Notes under the pieces: model-generated | The model's database searches: none | What the model was told of the DNA's origin: nothing | What the model saw: the letters and a program-made list of their open reading frames with translations, nothing else | Made by a program: the position numbers and the translations under genes | Part shown: one piece after another, positions 1,331-54,638 of the stretch | Position numbering within the stretch: position 1 is the first letter of the stretch | Layout: the number at the start of each line of letters is the position of its first letter | Origin: Desulfovibrio sp. OttesenSCG-928-A18 | GTDB lineage: Bacteria > Desulfobacterota > Desulfovibrionia > Desulfovibrionales > Desulfovibrionaceae | Direction: 5' to 3' | DNA length: 56,281 nucleotides | NCBI GenBank assembly: GCA_030267245.1 | Contig: JAJDJN010000001.1 | Coordinates: 1-56,281 of the forward strand

Positions 1331-1597
1331 ATGCGTAAACAAAGCGAAACCAGATTCCCCATAGATTTCTTTGGTGTGGAAGAGCTGGGCCAAGCAATAA
1401 AAAGAGTGCGGATGCAGCGCGGGCTGACCCAACACGAGTTGGCCATGCAGACGAACACCAGCACAAAATTCATCAGCAACGTGGAAAACGGCAAGGATAC
1501 CGCGCAGCTTGGAAAAGTCCTGCTGCTCATCCGTGTTCTGGATATGGGTACGCAACTTGTTGATCTTCGTGCCAAAGCTCGCCCCAAGGAACTGTGA
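1331..1597 (+). CDS. hipB: HipB-like XRE-HTH antitoxin
   Basis: LGQAIKRVRMQRGLTQHELA...ISNVENGKDTAQLGKV; overlaps the hipA start. Confidence 0.88.
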   Translation: MRKQSETRFPIDFFGVEELGQAIKRVRMQRGLTQHELAMQTNTSTKFISNVENGKDTAQLGKVLLLIRVLDMGTQLVDLRAKARPKEL

Positions 1598-2874
1598 TGG
1601 CTGAAAAGGGGATCTTGTTTGTACAATGGGACGGCGAAACAGTCGGTCATATTTCCCCGCACCGCAGGGGCAATGTAACCTTCTCCTATGCGGAGGAATG
1701 GCTGGCGAAGTACAATCAGCCGATTTCCCTTTCCTTGCCCTGTTCTGCGGAGAGCTTCGCCGCTCAAAAGAGCACCGCCTTTTTTGACAACCTGTTACCG
1801 GAGGAAGCTATATACAAGGACTTGTGCCGTGAGGCCAGACTTGACGAGGCGGACATCTACAATTTTTTGCGCCTGTTCGGGCAAGAGTGCGCGGGCGCTC
1901 TCACTGTCTTTGAGGAAGGCGCTTCGCCTTCGGTTCATTCCGCAGCCTACCGTGACATAACTGACGAGTTGGAAGAGCTTCTGAAAAAGCATCATGGCAT
2001 GCCGCAAGGCAGCCTGATTGCGGAAACCCAGGCCAGACTGTCCATAGCTGGCGCACAGAACAAGCTCCCGGTTGTTTTGGAAAACGGCCGATTTCTTGTG
2101 CCGGAAAACAATTCATTCGCTCCGACCACCGCGATTTTGAAACCCACCACATCACGCTTCCCGGATTTGCATCGCAACGAGCTGTTTTGTATGGAACTTG
2201 CTCGCCAGGCGGGGCTCCCCACACCAGACGCGGAAATCTTGCAAATAGGGAATTATCAGGCCTATGTGGTTATGCGTTATGACCGCCAGCGCGAGGGCGT
2301 AAACATCATCCGCATCCATCAGGAGGATTTCTGCCAGGCTATGGGCATCAGCCGCTTGCACAAGTATGAGGAAAACGGAGGGCCGGGCTTTGCCGCTTGT
2401 GGCAAGATTCTGCTGCACCCATCGCTTTCCCTCGACCAGACGGCGCGCGAGATGTTCATCAAGTGCGCGGTATTCAACTACATCATCGGCAACTGTGACG
2501 CCCACGGAAAGAACTTTTCCCTGTTGTACCAGAGAGGGAACGGCATCAACCTGGCTCCGTTCTACGACCTGGTTTCCACTATGGCCTACCCGGAATTGGC
2601 GCAGAAATTCGCTATGGCCATCGGCAAGACGTATCGTTTTGACAGAATTGCGGAACACTCATGGAGACAGTTCGCCGCCGACATGAATGTTCGTTTCGAA
2701 TGGCTACAATCGCTTATGGGAAAGGTCTGTATCGCCGTCATGTCAGGCTTGGAGCCGTTGGCGGCAGGGCATGAGCGCCAATACGGCGCATCGCCGATTT
2801 ATGAGCGTATCATCCGCATAGCCAGAGATGGGGCCAAGAGAGTTCTGCATGTTGCGGAAAATAGCGCAGCCTGA
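1594..2874 (+). CDS. hipA: HipA family Ser/Thr kinase toxin
   Basis: PISLSLP N-terminal domain, [11 protein letters not shown]-loop, [25 protein letters not shown]. Confidence 0.95.
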
Positions 2875-14196: not shown

Positions 14197-14688
14197 CTAT
14201 CTCGCCCTCTTCCTCCACACCCACGGAGCAACCGGCTTCCTCGGTCCGTCAATCTCCCTCCACAGCCCCTTGCGCGCCTTCGCTGCCGCCTTTTCTTTGG
14301 CCTTCCAAGCCCGGCACCGCGGAATCTTGCAATACTGCGTGTAGACCCAGGCCAGGCCGGACTCCAAGAGTATATCCTGGATCGTGGTGTCGCCGATATG
14401 CAGTACGGCCAGGGTGCGCTTGTAGCGGTCTTTGCCGTGTTCTTCGATCTCAACCTCCCGGAACAACGCCGCGCCATTGACCAGACCTGTCGCCGCCGGC
14501 CCGTAATCCTGCCGACTCTCGGGGCAGTCGATGCCATACAAGCGCACCTTCATGCGGTCTCCGCCCTGGATCGGCTCGACGTGGACCGTATCACCGTCAG
14601 AGACATGCACCACACGGGCAGGCCAAGCGTGGACGAGTAGAGGGGAAAACAGGCAAAACAGTAAGGCAAAAGCAACAGTGCGAATCAA
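14197..14688 (-). CDS. Exported thermonuclease (SNase family), copy 1
   Basis: Signal peptide; VSDGDT, VRLYGIDCPE, DRYKRTLA, ARKGLW. Confidence 0.9.
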   Translation of the reverse strand: MIRTVAFALLFCLFSPLLVHAWPARVVHVSDGDTVHVEPIQGGDRMKVRLYGIDCPESRQDYGPAATGLVNGAALFREVEIEEHGKDRYKRTLAVLHIGDTTIQDILLESGLAWVYTQYCKIPRCRAWKAKEKAAAKARKGLWREIDGPRKPVAPWVWRKRAR

Positions 14689-19071: not shown

Positions 19072-20721
19072 ATGGGCATCATCGTAGATCTCTTTGCCGG
19101 CGGCGGCGGAGCATCGCAGGGCATCTTTGAAGCCCTGGGCAGGCATCCGGACGCGGCGGTAAATCATAGCCCGCAGGCCGTGGCCATTCATGCCGCCAAC
19201 CATCCGGATACGGAACACTGGTGCCAGGATGTCTGGTCCGTGGATCCGTCATGGGTGGGCTGTGGCTACCCCGCTGATCTGCTATGGGCATCCCCGGATT
19301 GCACGCACCACTCAAAGGCCAAGGGCGGCCCGCCCCGGCGCGATGAAAGGCGCCGCGATCTGGCCATGGTGATCAGTACCAAGTGGATTCCGGCCCTGAA
19401 GCCGCGCGTCCTGATCCTGGAAAATGTGGAAGAATTCCTGGACTGGGGGCCGTGCGATTGCAACGGCGTACCCATCGAACATGCGAAAGGGGAAAATTTC
19501 CGCGCCTTTGTCAACGCCATCCGCCGCCGCGGCTACAGGGTGCAGTGGCGGGAACTGGTTGCCTGCGATTACGGCGCGCCCACAACACGCAAGCGCCTGC
19601 TACTGATCGCCCGCAACGACGGCCTCCCAATCGTCTGGCCGACACCGACGCACGGCGCGCCGGACAGTCCGGAAGTACTTTCCGGCAGGCTTCTTCCATG
19701 GCGCACGGCGGCGGAGATCATCGACTGGTCCTTGCCCTGCCCGTCAATTTTTGCCAGTTCCCGGGAGATATGGGAACAATACGGGCTGCGCGCCGTGCGG
19801 CCGCTGGCAGATAACACCATGCACCGCATTTTCAAGGGCCTTCAGCGCTATGTGCTGGATGCGGCGGATCCGTTCATCGTCAATAGCGCGGATGCGACCG
19901 CCGCCTTCCTGGCAAAACACTACAGCGGCGTTACGGGGCAGGATTGTCGCTCCCCGATAGGGACAATTACGACCATCGATCACCATTCCCTGGTCACTCC
20001 TTTTCTGGTGGGGGCTGGCGGCCCCAAATACAGTGCTAAGCCTGTTTCGGCTTCCATCCCCCTGGGCACGGTATTACCGGAAAATCATCGTGCCCTGATC
20101 GCCCCCATCTTGACAAGCTACTACGGCCCCAAGGGTGACAACGACTGCCGCGCCCGCCCCTTGACCGGGCAACTGCCCACGCAGACCACGGCAAACCGCT
20201 TTGCTCTGGTGGCGGCCTTCCTGGGGAAATACAACGGGAAAACGGCCGCAGGCTATCCCCTGGGTGCGCCGCTGGATACCTGCACGTCAAAAGATCACTT
20301 TTCCCTGAACAGCGCTTTTTTGGTGAAGTACAACGGCAGCGACCAAGACCCACGTCTTGAAGAACCCTTGCACACAGTAACCACGAAACCCCGTTTCGGA
20401 CTGGTCTCAGTGGCGGTTGCCGGTGAAATATACGCCATCGCGGACATCGGCATGCGCATGCTGACACCCAGGGAACTGCTCCGGGCGCAGGGTTTTCCCG
20501 ATACATACATCATCGACATGGCCGGGGGTAAAAAGGTGCCGAAAGACGCGCAAGTGGCAATGATCGGCAACTCGGTCTGTCCGCCGCTGGCCCGGGCGCT
20601 GGTTGCCGCAAACTATGTGGAAACAAGGCCGGAAGAACTGTGGTCCGCGCGGATGGGGATGCCGCTGTTCAGATATGGGGGTGCGACTGAGCGTATTGCG
20701 GAAAGGAGCGTTGTGCAATGA
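19072..20721 (+). CDS. Orphan C5-cytosine DNA methyltransferase
   Basis: DLFAGGGG, WASPDC, LENV, GAPTTRKR, RMLTPRE, IGNSV. Confidence 0.95.
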   Translation: MGIIVDLFAGGGGASQGIFEALGRHPDAAVNHSPQAVAIHAANHPDTEHWCQDVWSVDPSWVGCGYPADLLWASPDCTHHSKAKGGPPRRDERRRDLAMVISTKWIPALKPRVLILENVEEFLDWGPCDCNGVPIEHAKGENFRAFVNAIRRRGYRVQWRELVACDYGAPTTRKRLLLIARNDGLPIVWPTPTHGAPDSPEVLSGRLLPWRTAAEIIDWSLPCPSIFASSREIWEQYGLRAVRPLADNTMHRIFKGLQRYVLDAADPFIVNSADATAAFLAKHYSGVTGQDCRSPIGTITTIDHHSLVTPFLVGAGGPKYSAKPVSASIPLGTVLPENHRALIAPILTSYYGPKGDNDCRARPLTGQLPTQTTANRFALVAAFLGKYNGKTAAGYPLGAPLDTCTSKDHFSLNSAFLVKYNGSDQDPRLEEPLHTVTTKPRFGLVSVAVAGEIYAIADIGMRMLTPRELLRAQGFPDTYIIDMAGGKKVPKDAQVAMIGNSVCPPLARALVAANYVETRPEELWSARMGMPLFRYGGATERIAERSVVQ

Positions 20722-24262: not shown

Positions 24263-24558
24263 CCATCAGTAATCAGCCGGAAGAAATAAGACATGATCAC
24301 CCTTTCGGTATGCGCCTGGATTTTTTCCTGACAGTGCAGAGCAACACCATCCGTGCAAGAGACAAGCATCCTGACTTCACCGACTGCCGGTTCAAACTTC
24401 TGGCCCTCTTGGCTGAAGAGTTGGGAGAGGCGGCTAGGGCGGCCTATGAGGGAGACCCTGAAGGATTCCGTAGGGAGCTGGTTGATATGGTATCACTGAT
24501 ACAGCGGAACTTTGAAGGGGACATGAAGCAAGGAGCAAATATATGCGGCGATATCTGA
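24259..24558 (+). CDS. MazG-like nucleotide pyrophosphohydrolase
   Basis: LAEELGEAA...RELVD. Confidence 0.65.
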   Translation: MTISNQPEEIRHDHPFGMRLDFFLTVQSNTIRARDKHPDFTDCRFKLLALLAEELGEAARAAYEGDPEGFRRELVDMVSLIQRNFEGDMKQGANICGDI

Positions 24559-25037
24559 TCGGCCTGTGTGTTTTTATGGTTTTTGGATGGACGCATGCCG
24601 CCCTGGCCTGGCCTGCCCGTGTGGTGCATGTGTCTGACGGTGATACCGTGCACGTGGAGCCCATCAAGGGCGGCAAGCGCATCAAGGTGCGGCTGTACGG
24701 TGTTGACTGCCCGGAGTCCAGGCAGCCATACGGTCAGGCCGCTACGGGGTTTGTGAGCGATCTGGCGCTGTTCAAGATCGTGGACGTGCAACCGTATGAC
24801 ACGGACCGCTACGGGCGCACTGTGGCTGTGCTGGCCATAGGCGAAAGCACGGCTCAAGACGCGCTGCTTGATGCCGGGTTGGCATGGGTTTATACGCGGT
24901 ATTGCAAGATCCCGCAGTGTGCGGCGTGGAAAGACAAGGAAAAGGCGGCAGCGCGGGCTAGGCGGGGGTTGTGGCGGGACTTGGATGGGGCGAGTAAGCC
25001 CGTGGCACCGTGGACATGGAGATCAAGGGGGCGGTAG
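24543..25037 (+). CDS. Exported thermonuclease (SNase family), copy 2
   Basis: Signal peptide; VSDGDT, VRLYGVDCPE, DRYGRTVA. Confidence 0.9.
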   Translation: MRRYLIGLCVFMVFGWTHAALAWPARVVHVSDGDTVHVEPIKGGKRIKVRLYGVDCPESRQPYGQAATGFVSDLALFKIVDVQPYDTDRYGRTVAVLAIGESTAQDALLDAGLAWVYTRYCKIPQCAAWKDKEKAAARARRGLWRDLDGASKPVAPWTWRSRGR

Positions 25038-25237
25038 TGGGCAGCAAAGTTCCCCACCGCCTGACTCTGTGCCCCAAGTGCAAGCGGCGCAGGCTGTCGT
25101 CCGATAAAGATGTGTACGTCGACGGCCGGGGGTATGCCTTCAGGCGGCGGCAGTGCCCGAAGTGCGGGGATATCTACTCGAAGCAGGCGCCGGAAGAATT
25201 CACGGGGCCCTTTGAGGGTGAGGCGTGTCGGCATTAG
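25016..25237 (+). CDS. Zn-ribbon protein, possible late-gene activator
   Basis: CPKC...RRRQCPKCG at the end of the early right operon. Confidence 0.55.
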   Translation: MEIKGAVVGSKVPHRLTLCPKCKRRRLSSDKDVYVDGRGYAFRRRQCPKCGDIYSKQAPEEFTGPFEGEACRH

Positions 25238-25760
25238 GCCTCGACGGTGTTTTCTCCGGCACCGGATGCCGCCGTGCCTGATCGTATTCCCTCTGGCGCT
25301 TTTTGCGCCATTCCGGGCGGCAGTCCGGGCAGACTATGGCCGGGCCATGCTTTACAAACTCTTTGCCGCATCCGGGAACGGGGCAGGGGGTTAGTCTGGG
25401 CGTTTTCTGGGCGCGGCGGCTGTTGCGCGCCGGGTTGATTTCTTCCCGGTTTGCCATGTACCACTCCAGGCCTTGCTCCGCGTCATTTTCCAGGATCACG
25501 CAAGGGGCGCATTCCGGACAATAGCGCTGGTTTCCGCCTTTTACTTCATACTCGCGCCCGCAGATGGGGCAAATGTCGGGTTCGCCTATTGTCCTGGCCA
25601 GACCTTGGCGCTTTCTCCGCAGATGCCTGCGGCCGGCAGCGCGCCTGCGTTCCTCCCGGCAGTAAGGGCAAAACCATGCGCGCGGGCCGCCCATGAAGGG
25701 CCGCCCGCAGCCGCCTTTGTCCGGGCGGCAGATGCGGGGGCGAAGGTTTTGTGAGGTCAT
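25200..25760 (-). CDS. Multi-CxxC Zn-finger protein
   Basis: CGRPFMGGPRAWFCPYC, CPICG...YCPEC, CPDC; ATGA overlap with the upstream gene. Confidence 0.7.
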   Translation of the reverse strand: MTSQNLRPRICRPDKGGCGRPFMGGPRAWFCPYCREERRRAAGRRHLRRKRQGLARTIGEPDICPICGREYEVKGGNQRYCPECAPCVILENDAEQGLEWYMANREEINPARNSRRAQKTPRLTPCPVPGCGKEFVKHGPAIVCPDCRPEWRKKRQREYDQARRHPVPEKTPSRPNADTPHPQRAP

Positions 25761-26467
25761 TCGCCTGCCTCGTTGTTTTTTTGGGGGCACTTGCGTATCC
25801 CCCTTTTTTTCGCCTGAAAGCGTACAGTCGCCACGGTGCACCCAAGCTCTGCGGCGATTTCCTTGTAGGGGCGGGAGAAATCAACGGCGTCCCATTTTTC
25901 TATAGGCGTAACCGTTCTTGGCACCTTGCGCCGTTTTCTTATTCCCCTTTTTATAGCATGGCTTGAAACTATCTCCGCAGTGCACCCTAGTTCAGCCGCT
26001 ATTTCGCCGTAGGGGCGGGAAAAATCAACGGCGTCCCAGTGTTTTTCTGGTAAATTTGTCCTTGCCGCCTTGCGCCGTTTCCGTATTCCCCTTTTCCGGG
26101 CTTGCGCGTTGACTGTTGCGATAGTGGCACCAGTCTGCGCAACGATATCGCTATATGGCTGTGAAAAATCTACAGCATCCCATTCAGCGGGGGAGATTTC
26201 CGGTTGGCGTGCGCGGATTAATTTTTGTATCCCCCTTTTTTTCGCCTGATGGCTGACAGCGGACGCGGTGCACTGCAGTTCATCCGCAATATCCTGGTAG
26301 GGGCGGGAGAAGTCAACAGTGTCCCATTTTTCTATGCGCCGTTTTCTTATCCCTGTCCCCCTTTTATTCGCCTGAAGACTGACAGCTGCCACAGTGCACC
26401 CAAGCTCTGCGGCGATTTCCTTGTAGGGGCGGGAGAAATCAACGGCGTCCCAGTTACGTTTCACCAT
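25757..26467 (-). CDS. Protein with five tandem HTH-like repeats
   Basis: WDAVDFSRPYKEIAAELGCTVAAV...AKKRGI x5; repeats 1 and 5 share 59 identical bp. Confidence 0.8.
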   Translation of the reverse strand: MVKRNWDAVDFSRPYKEIAAELGCTVAAVSLQANKRGTGIRKRRIEKWDTVDFSRPYQDIADELQCTASAVSHQAKKRGIQKLIRARQPEISPAEWDAVDFSQPYSDIVAQTGATIATVNAQARKRGIRKRRKAARTNLPEKHWDAVDFSRPYGEIAAELGCTAEIVSSHAIKRGIRKRRKVPRTVTPIEKWDAVDFSRPYKEIAAELGCTVATVRFQAKKRGIRKCPQKNNEAGE

Positions 26468-26675
26468 ATTCTTGTCCTGTCAGCAGTGATTTTGCCAGGA
26501 TCAGCACTGCGCCCTGTATGGGGTGAATGCCGCGTTCCAGCTTTGATATCTGCTGGCGGCTCAGGCCCAAGGCAGCTGCGGCCTGTTCCTGGCTCCAACC
26601 CCGCTCCCGGCGCAGGCGGGCCAGGATATTATCGCTGGCCGGGGCCTGCAGGGGTCGACCCATACGCTTTTTCAT
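26454..26675 (-). CDS. XRE-HTH regulator (Aca-like)
   Basis: LARLRRERGWSQEQAAAALGLSRQQISKLERG. Confidence 0.85.
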   Translation of the reverse strand: MKKRMGRPLQAPASDNILARLRRERGWSQEQAAAALGLSRQQISKLERGIHPIQGAVLILAKSLLTGQEYGET

Positions 26676-26685
26676 GTCTTACCTG

Positions 26686-26714
26686 TGGACTTTTTTGGCG
26701 GGCGGCGGTATGTT
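26686..26714 (+). promoter_or_regulatory. Sigma70-like promoter for the repeat-containing sRNA
   Basis: TGGACT-N17-TATGTT; the expected start falls at about G26721, the first base of the repeat. Confidence 0.6.
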
Positions 26715-26720
26715 TAAACC

Positions 26721-26747
26721 GTCGCCCGCAGTGGCGTGGATTGAAAC
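26721..26747 (+). CRISPR. Solitary shortened type I-C CRISPR repeat (no array, no cas genes in window)
   Basis: GTCGCCCGCAGTGGCGTGGATTGAAAC: GTCGC start, CGCC/GGCG hairpin, GCGTGGATTGAAAC end typical of I-C repeats. Confidence 0.75.
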
Positions 26748-26777
26748 AACGCGATTAGCGTTATGGCCGTAGGCCAG

Positions 26778-26810
26778 AAAGACCCGTCCTTACCCGATGG
26801 GTCTTTTTTT
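26778..26810. terminator. Terminator hairpin, strongest on the plus strand and possibly bidirectional
   Basis: AAAGACCC...GGGTCTTT with a T7 tract after GGGTC. Confidence 0.7.
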
Positions 26811-27012
26811 ATGGGGCTTGCAGGTATACGGTGTTCTCAGTTTCATACAGTTCGCCATTGCCGGTGGCATAGGCGCACATGTAATCGTTAAATCCGTATA
26901 CTTCCGCGTACAGCGCTTCGCAAGCGGCGTTGTCGTTGCCGGTTATTACGGCAACGATGGGGGCGGGGTTGTTGTGGTCCACTTCGGCGTTTTCAAAGAC
27001 GTACAGGGTCAT
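26809..27012 (-). CDS. Small acidic protein, anti-CRISPR candidate
   Basis: 67 aa with 10 D/E and no K/R; RBS AAGGAG; strong upstream promoter. Confidence 0.7.
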   Translation of the reverse strand: MTLYVFENAEVDHNNPAPIVAVITGNDNAACEALYAEVYGFNDYMCAYATGNGELYETENTVYLQAP

Positions 27013-27063
27013 GGTGCTTCTCCTTTTTTCGATTGCGGGTTATTCCGTTGCGTCGTTGATTTA

Positions 27064-27092
27064 AACATACGCGCGTCACGCGCGAAAGTCAA
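27064..27092 (-). promoter_or_regulatory. Promoter with an inverted repeat between -35 and -10
   Basis: TTGACT-ttCGCGCGtgaCGCGCG-TATGTT (17-nt spacer). Confidence 0.75.
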
Positions 27093-27254
27093 GCGGATTT
27101 TTATATTTTCCCAAATTATTTTTTATAAATATTTTAAGCATGTTATGCCCGCAAACCTTCCCCCCTCCCCATAATCTCCGCAAATGCGGTGAATCTTCTT
27201 GAAAATATAAAAAAAAGCTTGACATAATTAGGGCATAACCCCGCGAGGTGAATT

Positions 27255-27806
27255 ATGCCCCTTTCCTTCTCCGATATCTCCCATGCCGCCAAGCGGCTGT
27301 CCCTCCCCCCCTGTGCCGTGAAAGCGGTTGTCGATGTCGAATCGTCCGGCAGCGGCTTTCTTGCGGACGGGCGGCCCGTGATTCGTTTTGAAAAGCACAT
27401 TTTTCTGCGCGAATTGAAAAAACGCGGGGCTTCGGCTGATGCCATCGCCAGGGCCGGGGCTCTTTCCGGTGTGCGATGGGAGACCTTGAACGCGGCCATC
27501 GCCATCCATGAAGAAGCGGCCCTCGCCTCCGCCTCCTGGGGGCTGTTCCAGATTATGGGGTTCAATCATCGCTCCTGCGGCTTTGCCGATGTTCACGCCT
27601 TTGTGGCAGCCATGAAAGAGAGCGAAATAAGGCAGTTGGATGCCTTCTGTACGTTCATGATCAACGAAGGTCTGGTGCTGTTGCTCAAGGGACAGGATTG
27701 GACTGGATTCGCCCGGCGCTACAACGGGCCGGGATACGCGGAAAACAACTACGACAACAAGATCCGGCGAGCCTTCGAGCGCTGTTGCCGGGAGATGAGG
27801 CAGTGA
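27255..27806 (+). CDS. Endolysin, N-acetylmuramidase (DUF3380 type)
   Basis: AVVDVESSG, FEKHIF, SWGLFQIMGFN, FARRYNGPGY. Confidence 0.92.
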   Translation: MPLSFSDISHAAKRLSLPPCAVKAVVDVESSGSGFLADGRPVIRFEKHIFLRELKKRGASADAIARAGALSGVRWETLNAAIAIHEEAALASASWGLFQIMGFNHRSCGFADVHAFVAAMKESEIRQLDAFCTFMINEGLVLLLKGQDWTGFARRYNGPGYAENNYDNKIRRAFERCCREMRQ

Positions 27807-41657: not shown

Positions 41658-42746
41658 TTATTCCCGCTTGTCGTAATACCCGATAACGGCCCGCAGTTCG
41701 GTGCTATATTTATAGATGTCTGACAACCTATCCAATTTGTGTTTTGTCCCATTTTTTTCCGCGTCAAAGGTTTCCAGATACTTGACCGAGGCAGCATTAA
41801 AATGCATCCGGCAAATGGGCTTTGTGTTTTTGTTATCAAGGAGGATGCCGCAATAACTGATAGTGTCGCGCATGATCACCCTGTCTGGGTTGACAACCTT
41901 GCTCATGATGGCGCGTACAATATGATAACCTTCGATCTCCTCCTGGGTGGTGATAATGCGGTTTTCTCGCTCCGGAGCTTCTGTGGCGCATTCTTCGCCA
42001 GTGGTTTCGGGCTGGACTCCAGGATAGGCGTTAAGTAGCATTGCCCCCTGCAAGCGGGCGTTAAGTACGCTGTTGATGTGATTTTCAAAGGACAGTTTGA
42101 TGCGAGGGCGGAAGTCGTCGATAATATTGGCTCTGAGCAACCCATCGTATACCTGACGGGCGAAAAGTCTGACAAGATCATCTGAGGGATTTTCTAATTC
42201 TGAAGACACGATCTTTTTCAACTGTCCAAGGTACTTTAGCTCCTGAGCCGCGGACAGAGCTGTATCCAGATCAAAGCAGTCATTGCACAGTTTTTTTAGC
42301 TCGGGGATCATGGCCTCATCCATGTCCAAAAAGTCAAAGATCATGAATGGTTTTTTGTCCATGACGTTTGGGTTGTCCAAGTCGGTATAGAATTTATATA
42401 CCACGCCATCGGTAAGGATGGCGATCTTGACCGGAAGAAGGCTTTGAAAATATTGTTGCAGTTGTCCTTCCCTGGCTCCATCCAGGGGGTCTCCGACCTT
42501 TTTCGCCTCGATGATGACCACGATATCGTCACCGCGCTTGATGGCGTAATCCACCTTACATTCCTTTTTACCCCCGAAGTCCGCGCAGTATTCGGGAATT
42601 ACTACGCGAGGATTAATCGGGTCGTAGCCGAGTAATTGCAGGAAAGGGACGATGAGGGCCATCTTGGTGGCTTCCTCGGTGAGGGCATGGGCCTTATGCT
42701 CTTCCACGCGCCGAGAGTGGGCTTTGACAGCATCGGTGAATTCCAT
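41658..42746 (-). CDS. Stand-alone HsdR-N (PD-(D/E)xK) nuclease domain protein
   Basis: TEEATK...PFLQLLGY...KVDYAI...IEAK...QLQQY...LTDG; no motor domain. Confidence 0.82.
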   Translation of the reverse strand: MEFTDAVKAHSRRVEEHKAHALTEEATKMALIVPFLQLLGYDPINPRVVIPEYCADFGGKKECKVDYAIKRGDDIVVIIEAKKVGDPLDGAREGQLQQYFQSLLPVKIAILTDGVVYKFYTDLDNPNVMDKKPFMIFDFLDMDEAMIPELKKLCNDCFDLDTALSAAQELKYLGQLKKIVSSELENPSDDLVRLFARQVYDGLLRANIIDDFRPRIKLSFENHINSVLNARLQGAMLLNAYPGVQPETTGEECATEAPERENRIITTQEEIEGYHIVRAIMSKVVNPDRVIMRDTISYCGILLDNKNTKPICRMHFNAASVKYLETFDAEKNGTKHKLDRLSDIYKYSTELRAVIGYYDKRE

Positions 42747-42764
42747 AAAGGGGACTCCTTTGGG

Positions 42765-43499
42765 TTATTCTGTTAAGCTGAACTCGGAGAGGGGAACGCG
42801 CTTGCCGTCGATGAGGGCCGTTTCTTCATCAGCAATGATGACGCCGTCAACTAGGACCGATTGCATGACAAAGCCCCGTGCCTGGCCCTTTATGGTAATT
42901 TTTGATCCCTTTTTTATCTTGCGAAGATAGGGATCTTTGGTGTCCACATAGATTTGCACCCCATGAAGACCCGTCTTGCCAACACCTACATTGATATAGG
43001 GTTTTCCAAGGGGATCCTTGGAGACCTGTTGAACCGTTATATACATGATGATCGTTTTGCCTTTAAAATCATCGTCCGCGACAACTTCATTATCGGAATA
43101 TGCGGCGTACAGGTTTTTGGGGGATATTCGATAGCCCAGGGAGGTTGTGACGAGTTTTCCTCGCAGTTGTGCTTTTTCCCCTGTCAGTTCGAGGAATGGG
43201 ACCGCGTCATTGTTTTTGCCTTTTTTTATTTCTCCAAAAGCCCTCGCTCCGTCTTCGGGCTTTTTACCTTCATCGTACAAGACGAATTGAAATTGCTCGA
43301 CATCCAGTTTGGCAAAGACCTCTTCCATTTGGCTGAGTATGGTGTCTTTATCCAACGGCACATCTGGAATATTGCCAGTGATTTCTAGCAAGGCGTATCG
43401 TTCCGGTATGGAGACAGTGATATTGCCGGTTACCGCCAAAGCCAGATGGGGTGATAGGGCAAACACGAACAAGAAAGAAAGTAACGCCCGCTTCATCAT
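42765..43499 (-). CDS. Exported OB-fold (tRNA_anti-like) protein
   Basis: Signal peptide; LYAAYSDNEVVADDDFKGK...KKGSKITIKG. Confidence 0.75.
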   Translation of the reverse strand: MMKRALLSFLFVFALSPHLALAVTGNITVSIPERYALLEITGNIPDVPLDKDTILSQMEEVFAKLDVEQFQFVLYDEGKKPEDGARAFGEIKKGKNNDAVPFLELTGEKAQLRGKLVTTSLGYRISPKNLYAAYSDNEVVADDDFKGKTIIMYITVQQVSKDPLGKPYINVGVGKTGLHGVQIYVDTKDPYLRKIKKGSKITIKGQARGFVMQSVLVDGVIIADEETALIDGKRVPLSEFSLTE

Positions 43500-43897
43500 C
43501 AATCCTCCCGATACAGGTTGATATGTATAAGCAATCATTAACCGATGGATATCGCTGGATCAAGGGGGAAAGTTTTTTGCAAAATACTTTGATAATACCG
43601 CTTGCTCCGTAACCTTGTTCTGTTATATAAACATCAAACAACTTATTTGTTCGTCCTTCTCGTAGGAGACCAGCCCGTCTTCTGCCAACACGGCGCACTA
43701 GCGCGAAGCCTACACCCTGCACCCTGAAAAGGGCATCTGGCGCGGGCTTTTTGTGTTTACGGCAGAGAGAGCATGACGGACATTCACGCCTCCCCCACTC
43801 CCCTTGCGGCATTCACGCCGTTTCATCTCTTCACGCTCGCGCGGGTGTGCTGGCCGATGTGTTTCTTTGTTTGTTACCGCAAGCAAGGAGGCATGAT

Positions 43898-53093: not shown

Positions 53094-53810
53094 ATTCTGG
53101 ATATAGCCGAACTGGAAAATCTGCGCGAGATGACGGGATACGCCATCCAAAGCCAGTACGCGGCATCGGCCAGGATCCTGGCTCTGGCGGCCGCCTGCCA
53201 GGAAGAAGTCTGCCCGGAAGCGGACGTGGGCCTGTTCTTTCGGACCATGTTCGATATCTACACGGCTGAAGGCGTGGGGCTGGATAACTGGGGGATGATC
53301 CTGCAGATGGGCCGCGTGATCCCAGGGCCCTACCTTGGGCCCTGCTTCGGTTTTGACGGCTCGGAGTTGCATCCCTTCAGCCGGTATCCCTTTGCTCCGG
53401 ACACGGCGTCAGAAGATGGGGCCGTGGCCCTGCGCCTGGATGATGAAGCTTACCGCCTGCTGCTGCTGTACAAGGCCATGGCCAATATATCGGCGTCCAC
53501 GGCACAGGCCCAGAACGATCTGCTGGCCGCCCTGGTGGGAACGGGCATAGCCGATCTGCCCGGCGCCGCCTATGTGCTGGAAGTGGATACAATGGTCATC
53601 CGCTGGGTCTTTGAAGACAGCCTGGATGCCATACAACTGGCCGTTTTCCGGGTAGCCGGCGCTCTGGCGCGCGGCGCCGGTGTGGGCTGGGAACTGTACG
53701 CCCTGAATCCGGGCGCCGTTTTCGGCTTTGACGGCGGCAACTGGCAGCCCTTCAACCAGGCCCCCTTTGCCCCGGACGGGGCGCTGATCAACAACAGGAA
53801 GGAAACATGA
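53067..53810 (+). CDS. Baseplate wedge protein (DUF2612 type)
   Basis: SQYAAS, TAEGVGLDNWG, FGF, LDDEAYR...KAMANI. Confidence 0.85.
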   Translation: MYTWRDWRDILDIAELENLREMTGYAIQSQYAASARILALAAACQEEVCPEADVGLFFRTMFDIYTAEGVGLDNWGMILQMGRVIPGPYLGPCFGFDGSELHPFSRYPFAPDTASEDGAVALRLDDEAYRLLLLYKAMANISASTAQAQNDLLAALVGTGIADLPGAAYVLEVDTMVIRWVFEDSLDAIQLAVFRVAGALARGAGVGWELYALNPGAVFGFDGGNWQPFNQAPFAPDGALINNRKET

Positions 53811-54638
53811 AAAAACATCCAATACCCCTCGCACTTTTTCGGGGCCCCCTTTGCCTCGGCCGGGAACAAACAGATCATCCCGGAAGTCGCCTCCGAGGCC
53901 GGCCGGGCCAGCCTGGACCAGGGCTTTCCCGTGGTCACGCAGTTGCCCCTGGCCCAGGGGGGCATTGCGCCCAACAGGCTGGATTTTAACGGCGTCCTGT
54001 ATATGCTTTCCGCCTTCGCTTTCTGGCAGCAAAGCGGCGGCATGTGGCGCTGGGACGGTGCCCTGAACTACGCGCCTCCCTGTCTGGTCTTTCATGGCGA
54101 AAAGCTTTGGTGGTGCCGCAAGGCGTCCGGGCCGAACTCGGGCGATGGACCCAAGACGCCGGGCACGACGGGGGCGGATGGCTACTGGCAAGACTTTTTT
54201 GCCGCATTTCTTGATCTTGACGGCCTGGGCGGTTCCGCCCTGCCGGTGGGCAGCCTGATTTTCTATTGCGGCGTAACGGTGCCGGCGGGCTTTTTCTTCT
54301 GCAACGGGCAAAACTTTTCGGCTACGGACTATCCGAAGCTGTATGCCGCCCTTGGCAATCGCAACAAGGTGCCGGACTACAGGGGGCTTTTTTTGCGTAG
54401 CACAGGCGGGGCTGCCGGCGCCCAGGGAGTGACGCGCGCGTCGTCCATCGGTCCGCATGCCCATGCCATCCCGGGCCCCTTTGACGCCGGCGGCCTGAAG
54501 CATGACAGCTCGGTGGAAAACGACGTGGGCGTGGAACGCACTACCCTTACGGGCACGACGCAAAGCAACGGAACCGGCATCGGGACAGAAACAGCGCCGG
54601 CGCACGTGGCCGAGATGCTGTGTATAAAGCACGACTAG
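53807..54638 (+). CDS. Tail fibre/collar-domain protein with an apparent extra base just after ATG
   Basis: PFASAGNK...GFP..TQLP...GG..P.R.DFNG; collar motif CNGQ...YPKLY...PDYRGLFLR; the ATG is out of frame by one A. Confidence 0.75.

What the first reader, a model, noticed from the sequence alone, without database searches (positions are those of the whole stretch)
26686..26810. Self-contained crRNA-like small RNA: promoter, solitary I-C repeat, 33-nt spacer, terminator
Seen: TGGACT-N17-TATGTT places a start at about the first G of GTCGCCCGCAGTGGCGTGGATTGAAAC. This is followed by 33 nt (26748-26780), then a GACCC/GGGTC hairpin with a T7 tail. No second repeat or cas gene is in the window. 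Known: I-C repeats end in GCGTGGATTGAAAC (the D. vulgaris repeat, from memory, is GTCGCCCCCCACGCGGGGGCGTGGATTGAAAC) and Cas5d cuts at the hairpin base. Phage solitary repeats can act as RNA anti-CRISPRs (Racr) or guides. Inference: an approximately 90-nt RNA that loads host Cascade as a decoy, or as a guide using the terminator in place of repeat 2. The spacer folds into two hairpins (AACGC/GCGTT, TGGCC/GGCCA), which favours a non-targeting decoy.
Basis: partly seen in the sequence, partly recalled or inferred. Interest (0 to 1): 0.9.

Follow-up and report, generated by a model that had tools for sequence, protein, structure and literature searches.

The report
Trimmed CRISPR-repeat decoy RNA in prophage
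A prophage carries one shortened copy of its host's type I-C CRISPR repeat between a predicted promoter and a predicted terminator, which likely makes a small RNA that would soak up the host's CRISPR proteins, a known phage trick in a trimmed, hairpin-rich form.

Summary
The window is a 56-kb prophage contig. Positions 26721-26747 are the repeat of the host assembly's type I-C array with 5 bases removed from the hairpin; the stem base and the 11-nt handle that Cas5c reads are kept. Its promoter scores only 8/12, but it shares a 10-mer found twice in 2.37 Mb with the converging promoter of an orphan acidic 67-aa gene. The unit lies antisense between that gene and an XRE-HTH gene, a layout like acr-aca operons. 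No close homologue was found. Short-stem solitary I-C repeats do form a widespread class (56 families), enriched for promoters and terminators, with pairing kept at a base pair left free in the search (16 of 19). One gut-phage family shares the two-hairpin geometry, without detectable sequence homology. No PAM-flanked promoter target was found, but the host assembly is 66% complete. Against: from the likely start site the repeat stem is predicted at only 9%, and expression, processing and inhibition are untested. Best reading: a Racr-like decoy (0.55); rivals are a Cracr-type guide (0.2) and a decaying copy (0.2). This scan noted similar trimmed I-C repeats before on other DNA.

The parts
26686..26714 (+). 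Predicted sigma-70 promoter (TGGACT-17-TATGTT, 8/12); canonical spacing would put +1 at G26721
   Evidence: below the scan threshold; shares TATGTTTAAA with the minus-strand promoter, the only two copies in 2.37 Mb
26721..26747 (+). Solitary type I-C repeat shortened to 27 nt: first 6 and last 15 nt identical to the host repeat, 4-bp stem CGCC/GGCG, 6-nt loop; predicted Cas5c cut between 26736 and 26737, leaving the 11-nt handle
   Evidence: cut position inferred from PMC8524198 and PMC5965381 (passages)
26748..26762 (+). Hairpin 1 (5 bp, 5-nt loop) starting at the first base after the repeat; covers what would be the seed of a guide
26764..26776 (+). Hairpin 2 (5 bp, 3-nt loop), one base after hairpin 1
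26776..26810 (+). Predicted intrinsic terminator: 12-13 bp stem, 7-nt loop, T7 tail; on the minus strand it follows the acidic ORF's stop and has a short TTTCT tail, so it is probably bidirectional and leaky that way
   Evidence: (z -6.4, 0 of 200 shuffles); not listed
26809..27012 (-). Orphan acidic 67-aa ORF (pI about 4.1, strong AGGAG ribosome site); anti-CRISPR protein candidate by position and charge only
   Evidence: no homologue or family
27064..27092 (-). Twin promoter (TTGACT-17-TATGTT, 9/12) with an inverted repeat between the boxes (27070-27084), a possible operator
26454..26675 (-). XRE-family HTH protein, 73 aa; its start codon lies 11 nt from the -35 box of the RNA promoter; Aca-like by position
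   Evidence: (PF01381 E 3e-12)
25757..26467 (-). 236-aa protein of repeated HTH-like units, downstream in the same cassette
25200..25841 (-). Cys-rich zinc-ribbon-like ORF; a homologue lies next to another promoter-short repeat-terminator unit (L057)
   Evidence: 35% over 107 aa, E 2e-15

Best explanation
This is a solitary, shortened copy of the host's type I-C repeat with a predicted promoter and terminator, and it likely makes a 90-nt RNA that would act as a decoy (Racr-like) for the host's Cascade proteins. Shown: the repeat match, the host array, the twin promoter motif, and the position antisense between an acidic orphan gene and an XRE-HTH gene next to the lysis genes. Inferred: host RNA polymerase starts at about 26719-26721 and stops at the U7 tail. 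Cas5c would recognise the stem base and 3' overhang and cut after G26736, giving a 74-nt RNA with the normal 11-nt handle. Cas5c, Cas7c and Cas8c would then assemble on it, while two hairpins over the seed region and the terminator hairpin in place of a 3' repeat would leave the complex unable to pair with DNA. The twin promoters would switch on this RNA and the acidic protein together.
For: The host assembly holds an I-C array (12 whole repeats plus one cut by the contig end) behind cas1-cas2. The deletion removes only the upper stem and loop, whereas Cas5c is reported to depend on the stem base and 3' overhang, not the loop (PMC8524198, PMC5965381, passages). Class evidence: of 56 non-redundant solitary short repeats from 121 loci, 10 have a promoter of 9/12 or more (background 1.8% of 1120 positions), 12 a terminator (2.7%) and 5 both (0 of 1120). 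With the fourth stem pair left free, 16 of 19 solitary families are Watson-Crick paired against 0.45 expected. TATGTTTAAA occurs twice in 2.37 Mb, both times as the -10 region of these two converging promoters. The segment folds at -12.7 kcal/mol, z -3.0; 5 of 99 real spacers are as stable. The strict two-hairpin geometry recurs in 1 of 65 families (73 of 82 members) against 0.005 expected; that family also lies antisense among small genes with an XRE-HTH. No TTC-flanked match longer than 9 nt in the assembly or longer than 7 nt in 8 genus cas loci. Racr candidates are enriched near acr genes (PMC10651486, passages).
Against: If +1 is G26721, the four basal pairs form with probability about 0.09 (about 1.6 kcal/mol to force), against 0.91-0.99 for the host repeat. 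A start at 26719 or earlier gives 0.93 but pairs the UGG that Cas5c reads. The repeat differs by 2 nt from a better-folding 5-bp tetraloop form in a genus relative, which could be decay. The promoter scores only 8/12, and the 25/39 identity between the twins is nearly matched by an unrelated site at 24/39. No close homologue, so no conservation test of this copy. None of 101 host and relatives' spacers targets this phage (best 24 of 34). The acidic ORF matches no Acr family. The only assembled host Cas5 is divergent (55.7 bits, cut-off 85) and lacks the Tyr and Lys at the columns I take to be the catalytic ones; cas3, cas7 and cas4 were not found in the 66% complete assembly. Folded segments are not general in the class (6 of 56 with z <= -2, against 4 of 99 spacers). 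A model of the gut-phage segment does not find this one.
Confidence: 0.55

Rival explanations
1. The RNA is a Cracr/crlRNA-type guide: it loads Cascade and, through a 9-12 nt PAM-proximal match, represses a host cas, toxin or defence promoter or a rival element.
For: Single repeat + spacer + rho-independent terminator is the published CracrVA1 layout, and I-C Cracr candidates are reported (10.1101/2024.10.29.618823, passages and section 7). The distance from repeat to the GC core of the terminator (33 nt) is within the host spacer range of 33-35 nt. The first 10 nt match the host's divergent cas8 gene at C116:3177-3186 (minus strand) behind CTC, a PAM reported as functional for I-C (10.1101/137067, passage). 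Only 0.2% of phage 10-mers have such a site in the assembled cas regions. The promoter of the array-linked cas operon is not assembled.
Against: The 10-nt match is inside a coding sequence, about 490 nt into cas8, not at a promoter. It was found after the fact, and the chance ranges from 0.002 to 0.044 depending on the PAM rule; with TTC alone there is no match. Eight genus cas loci give no TTC run over 7 nt. The seed is buried in hairpin 1. In the gut-phage family with the same geometry, seed position 8 varies in 5 of 12 variants while stems and position 6 stay fixed.
Confidence: 0.2
2. The repeat is a decaying remnant of a once-active repeat unit or mini-array; today the hairpin mainly terminates the converging acidic gene and blocks read-through from the replication genes into the lysis genes.
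For: Weak predicted stem from the canonical start (0.09). Two differences from the 5-bp tetraloop form in the G023 mini-array. The -35 box is weaker than the twin's. Endolysin relatives lack the element: 0 of 80 viral loci and 0 of 14 genus loci, apart from one two-mismatch hit in a coding region.
Against: All 15 terminal bases and the first 6 are intact. The T7 tail faces the plus strand, where no gene ends nearby. Promoter spacing to the repeat (6 nt) equals that of other intact class members, L183 and L229. 4-bp stems with 6-nt loops recur in unrelated families. Both downstream hairpins are perfect.
Confidence: 0.2
3. The transcript works mainly as an antisense or interference regulator of the minus-strand cassette, tuning read-through from the acidic gene into the HTH gene, with the repeat as a Cas5c-sensitive switch that reports host Cascade levels.
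For: The RNA is fully antisense to the stretch between the acidic ORF and the HTH gene, and its -35 box abuts the HTH ribosome site. In 9 of 10 hand-picked class members the next gene downstream is on the opposite strand (rough ORF calls).
Against: The RNA does not cover the HTH ribosome site or start codon. Convergence is explained more simply by sharing a terminator. I found no precedent in the papers read.
Confidence: 0.05

Closest known systems
RNA anti-CRISPRs / solitary repeat units, especially RacrIC1 (Camara-Wilpert et al. 2023, PMC10651486; abstract, passages, section 30, supplement 1 part 1, string search of supplement 3)
   Same: One intergenic repeat in a prophage, matching the host's subtype, with a promoter upstream, beside a small acidic gene.
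   Different: RacrIC1 has a 34-nt repeat with a full hairpin and is co-transcribed 11 nt behind acrIC5; this one is 27 nt, has its own promoter and terminator, and is antisense to the neighbouring operon. It scores 30.2 bits over 15 of 32 nt against the host repeat, below the SRUFinder cut-off of 41.1 (7 repeats tested, not the 17,823 of that tool).
[quoted passage not shown]
   Same: Single repeat-like unit, spacer-like segment and rho-independent terminator in a phage; I-C examples reported.
   Different: Cracrs need at least 9 PAM-proximal matches to a CreR/CreA-type promoter target; none was found here at a promoter, and the seed is folded.
Phage CRISPR mini-arrays (example found here: G023:C3, two 27-nt I-C-like repeats plus degenerate units behind a promoter)
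   Same: Same 27-nt shortened repeat length, 2 nt from this repeat; promoter and terminator; prophage of the same genus.
   Different: Several units with different spacers and 5-bp tetraloop stems; the window has one unit.
acr-aca operons (general layout recalled; no call defines it)
   Same: Strong promoter with an inverted repeat, small acidic gene, downstream small HTH gene, placed among phage accessory genes.
   Different: Neither protein matches a named Acr or Aca family, and an antisense RNA gene is nested between them.

Membership tests
Racr / solitary repeat unit | Single CRISPR-repeat mimic, intergenic, on a mobile element, no second repeat within 100 bp | tested here: met
Racr / solitary repeat unit | Repeat subtype matches a CRISPR-Cas system of the host | tested here: met
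   I-C array and cas1-cas2 on C230; caveat: same metagenome bin, effector genes of that locus not assembled
Racr / solitary repeat unit | Passes the published SRUFinder rule (at least 90% coverage, at least 41.1 bits) | tested here: not met
   30.2 bits, 15 of 32 nt, with 7 repeats as queries; a search rule rather than a biological feature, and RacrIF2 was also only partly found by it
Racr / solitary repeat unit | Repeat keeps the fold that the processing nuclease needs | tested here: inconclusive
   Stem base and overhang intact; stem probability 0.09 from 26721, 0.93 from 26719 or earlier
Racr / solitary repeat unit | Next to an acr gene | tested here: inconclusive
   Orphan acidic ORF and XRE-HTH, no Acr family match
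Racr / solitary repeat unit | Expressed, processed and bound by Cas proteins; inhibits immunity | not testable with these tools
   No sequencing run was listed for this stretch; needs the bench
Cracr / crlRNA guide | Single repeat-like unit, spacer-like segment, intrinsic terminator | tested here: met
Cracr / crlRNA guide | At least 9 PAM-proximal matches to a cas or creT promoter | tested here: inconclusive
   None at a promoter in the assembly or 8 genus cas loci; a 10-nt CTC-flanked match inside cas8; host 66% complete
Cracr / crlRNA guide | Lowers the target transcript in a Cas-dependent way | not testable with these tools
   needs the bench
CRISPR mini-array | At least two repeats flanking a spacer | tested here: not met
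   One repeat only

The most novel reading that the evidence does not exclude
Phages of distant hosts have arrived at one design of type I-C decoy RNA: a minimal 4-bp repeat stem, the intact 11-nt handle, a 5-bp hairpin at positions 1-15, a one-base linker, a second hairpin and a terminator, nested antisense in an anti-defence operon. The hairpins would be the active part that jams Cascade assembly. Such trimmed elements fall below the published search rule, so RNA anti-CRISPRs against I-C would be far more common than catalogued, and here RNA and protein inhibitor would be co-fired by duplicated promoters.
Probability: 0.25. Interest if true: 0.72.

Novelty: new variant of a known kind. Interest (0 to 1): 0.5.

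Why it matters
Of the nine Racr candidates in the tested table, one is type I-C, and it has a full-length repeat. If this 27-nt form works, the minimal requirement for hijacking Cas5c is a 4-bp stem plus handle, and dozens of phage elements that a 41-bit BLAST rule would tend to miss become candidates. The shared two-hairpin geometry gives a direct test of whether the fold after the handle, not just the handle, makes a decoy. A 90-nt off-switch for the compact I-C system would also be useful as a tool. If it proves to be a guide or a remnant, it is an ordinary case.

Tried and rejected
Chance match: rejected. Close homologues: exact repeat in viral contigs 0; handle plus segment start in metagenomes 0; 851-nt query in 61 relatives gave only the G023 mini-array and one weak unrelated hit outside G000; phage and plasmid records gave only matches at E of 1 or more. 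Rfam: nothing. Self-targeting: none of 101 spacers matches the phage; an 18-nt partial match of host spacer 4 did not extend. The 67-aa ORF: only itself in the 5.8-billion set; one spurious viral hit inside a 499-aa ORF of another kind; Atlas best score 0.87, under the 0.9 bar; single-sequence model pLDDT 48 and best Z 3.3, which say nothing either way; the HMMER search of representatives was still queued at the end, so remote homology is open. Sequence homology with the gut-phage segment: a covariance model from 11 variants does not find the window's segment at E <= 10, and covariation within that family is not significant (161 of 500 shuffles). The double changes at 4 of 5 pairs come from rows chosen for having the hairpin, so I give them little weight. 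Expression: no run was listed; this is no evidence either way. Six strings from the short repeats were not found in the held copy of the SRU table, which may be cut. Literature: 'RacrIC1' 1 paper; solitary repeat unit + type I-C + phage 4 papers; solitary repeat + Bacteroides + phage + anti-CRISPR 0. The library lacks most subscription journals, so later structural work on Racrs may exist unseen, and the closed supplements of the Cracr preprint may list relatives of this class.

Full report
Setting. The window is the whole of contig C1 of assembly G000 (2.37 Mb, 318 contigs, 66% complete). Pfam on 46 ORFs shows two integrases, a CI-like repressor, DnaB, methylases, endolysin, terminase, portal, capsid and baseplate genes: a temperate phage. 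A same-genus relative's contig coincides with a record titled Desulfovibrio sp.. The finding lies in a minus-strand accessory cassette (25200-27092) between the plus-strand replication genes and the endolysin at 27255.

Observation. All listed elements are at the stated coordinates. The 12-nt end of the repeat occurs exactly once in the window and, in the assembly, otherwise only in an array on C230. That array has a 32-nt repeat, 33-35-nt spacers and lies behind cas1 and cas2. The element keeps the first 6 and last 15 bases of the host repeat and is 5 nt shorter in between, so a 7-bp stem becomes a 4-bp stem with a 6-nt loop. The pattern is present in 3 of 401 family genomes, with the backwards control at zero: this one, a mini-array in G023, and a deletion variant inside an ordinary array in G141. 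It is not chance.

What the trimmed repeat keeps. Two papers, read as passages, state that Cas5c recognises the stem base and the 3' overhang, cuts at the stem base to leave an 11-nt handle, and tolerates changes in the loop (PMC5965381; PMC8524198). Those parts are intact, so a cut between 26736 and 26737 is the inference. Folding gives a caution. From G26721, the canonical +1, the basal pairs have probability 0.08-0.09 and cost about 1.6 kcal/mol to enforce; from 26719 or earlier they reach 0.93, through extra pairs that take up the UGG after the cut site; the host repeat with one spacer gives 0.91-0.99. The host side is also incomplete: the only assembled Cas5 (C116) scores 55.7 bits against a cut-off of 85 and lacks the Tyr and Lys seen in three canonical genus proteins at the columns I take to be catalytic; cas3, cas7 and cas4 were not found. 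The effector that reads the C230 array is therefore probably unassembled.

Promoter and terminator. The consensus scan called neither. The terminator nevertheless folds at z -6.4 with a 12-13 bp stem and a T7 tail. The promoter has independent support: TATGTTTAAA occurs twice in the whole assembly, at 26709 (+) and 27069 (-), each time 17 nt behind a TGGACT or TTGACT box. Overall identity of the two promoters is 25 of 39, which alone is unremarkable (an unrelated site reaches 24). The second promoter carries an inverted repeat between its boxes and drives a 67-aa acidic ORF (pI about 4.1, strong ribosome site) whose stop codon overlaps the T tail. Behind the element on that strand follow an XRE-HTH gene and a repeated-HTH gene. 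This resembles an acr-aca operon (layout recalled). The acidic protein has no homologue or family, so the Acr label rests on position and charge only.

The class. No close homologue was found, and endolysin relatives lack the element (0 of 80 viral loci; 0 of 14 genus loci apart from one two-mismatch coding hit). Short-stem repeats are common, though: 63 viral, 56 metagenome and 3 genome loci. Of 121 loci examined, 104 hits were solitary and fell into 56 families; 10 had a promoter of 9/12 or more, 12 a terminator and 5 both, against 1.8%, 2.7% and 0 of 1120 random positions. The window's own promoter, at 8/12, would not count. Because that pattern fixed the stem, I repeated the scan with the fourth pair free: the scan stopped at 120 stretches, 80 were held, and 16 of 19 solitary families were Watson-Crick paired in four pair types against 0.45 expected. 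One member (L057) sits antisense among acidic genes beside a homologue of the window's zinc-ribbon ORF. In 9 of 10 hand-picked members the next gene converges on the terminator (rough ORF calls).

The segment after the repeat. It folds into two perfect hairpins at -12.7 kcal/mol (z -3.0); 5 of 99 real spacers are as stable and 3 of 99 have as low a z. Folding is not general in the class (6 of 56). A strict geometry taken from the window (5 pairs at positions 1-15, then 5 pairs starting at 16-19) is met by 40 of 783,769 genome positions and 66 of 847,196 comparator positions, so 0.005 of 65 families are expected; one family meets it, in 73 of 82 members. I set the tolerance for the second hairpin after seeing that family, so the figure is somewhat flattering. 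That gut-phage family also lies antisense among small genes that include an XRE-HTH, and varies in loops but hardly in stems. Its promoter looks Bacteroidales-like (motif recalled); no annotated phage matched it. Homology is not shown: a covariance model of 11 variants misses the window's segment, and covariation inside the family is not significant.

Is it a guide? Among 6003 sites sharing the first 5 nt, the best TTC-flanked run is 9 nt with position 6 free, and the best ungapped match is 23 of 33. Eight genus cas loci give at most 7 nt behind TTC. One lead remains: a perfect 10-nt match behind CTC inside the host's divergent cas8 gene (C116:3177-3186, minus strand), which 0.2% of phage 10-mers would have under a TTC/CTC/TCC rule and 4.4% under any PAM. 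CTC is a reported I-C PAM (10.1101/137067, passage). It is not at a promoter and was found after the fact. None of 101 spacers targets this phage, so pressure from I-C on it is not shown.

Comparison. It works most like a Racr (PMC10651486: abstract, passages, section 30, supplement 1 part 1). It differs from RacrIC1 in the trimmed stem, separate promoter and antisense position, and it scores 30.2 bits against a published cut-off of 41.1 with the 7 repeats I tried. Its layout equals that of Cracr guides (10.1101/2024.10.29.618823, passages and section 7), whose defining promoter match is not found in what is assembled. Membership in either family needs function and is not shown. Earlier notes of this scan describe a trimmed I-C repeat in a rumen phage and a lone I-C repeat gene in another prophage; nothing was noted for this genome or sequence.

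Verdict. A real, probably expressed, shortened I-C solitary repeat unit. Decoy 0.55, guide 0.2, decaying copy 0.2, antisense regulator 0.05. New variant of a known kind; interest 0.5. The twin promoters and the recurring two-hairpin geometry are the points worth testing.

Noticed in passing
G023:C3 about 53500-53830 (L072 about 19300-19630): Prophage-borne mini-array: promoter, a degenerate repeat-like unit with a different stem, two 27-nt I-C repeats with tetraloops, a partial fourth unit and a terminator; spacer 3 matches G000's cas5 upstream region for 7 nt behind TTC.
   Followed up: partly
L072:16373-19337: Reverse transcriptase (RVT_1) behind an Mtd-domain tail protein with a near-duplicate stretch between them, just upstream of the mini-array: looks like a diversity-generating retroelement.
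   Followed up: no
G000:C116:2028-4188; L089, L090: Divergent I-C-like locus (cas5 about 24% identical to canonical genus Cas5c; in G014 the order is cas5-cas8-cas7-cas3 with no array or cas1 within 16.5 kb); in G000 a KilA-N gene and an IS element lie upstream.
   Followed up: partly
G000:C116 about 1890-1900, minus strand: A 9-nt repeat-handle-like motif in the intergenic stretch before cas5, without the repeat stem; may be chance.
   Followed up: no
window 25757-26467 (-): 236-aa protein of five roughly 45-aa HTH-like repeats; the only relative found among 24 genus genomes is a 1195-aa frame in G023:C38.
   Followed up: partly
window 27088-27110 and 27201-27223: 23-nt inverted repeat (87%) formed by similar AT-rich stretches ending in TTGAC boxes that face away from each other, before the acidic ORF and the endolysin.
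   Followed up: no
window 1331-2874 (+): HipB/HipA-like toxin-antitoxin pair between two integrase genes at the left end.
   Followed up: no
window 14197-14688 (-) and 24543-25037 (+): Two similar SNase-family nuclease genes in one prophage.
   Followed up: no
window 41658-43538 (-): Two genes against the direction of the structural region: an HSDR_N-domain protein and a tRNA_anti-like protein.
   Followed up: no
L026, L035, L045, L050, L055: Short I-C solitary repeats in the same orientation between small acidic genes next to an integrase, a layout close to the co-transcribed RacrIC1 locus.
   Followed up: partly
L049, L061, L067: One 57.7-kb viral contig holds three separate short I-C solitary repeats with different loops.
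   Followed up: no
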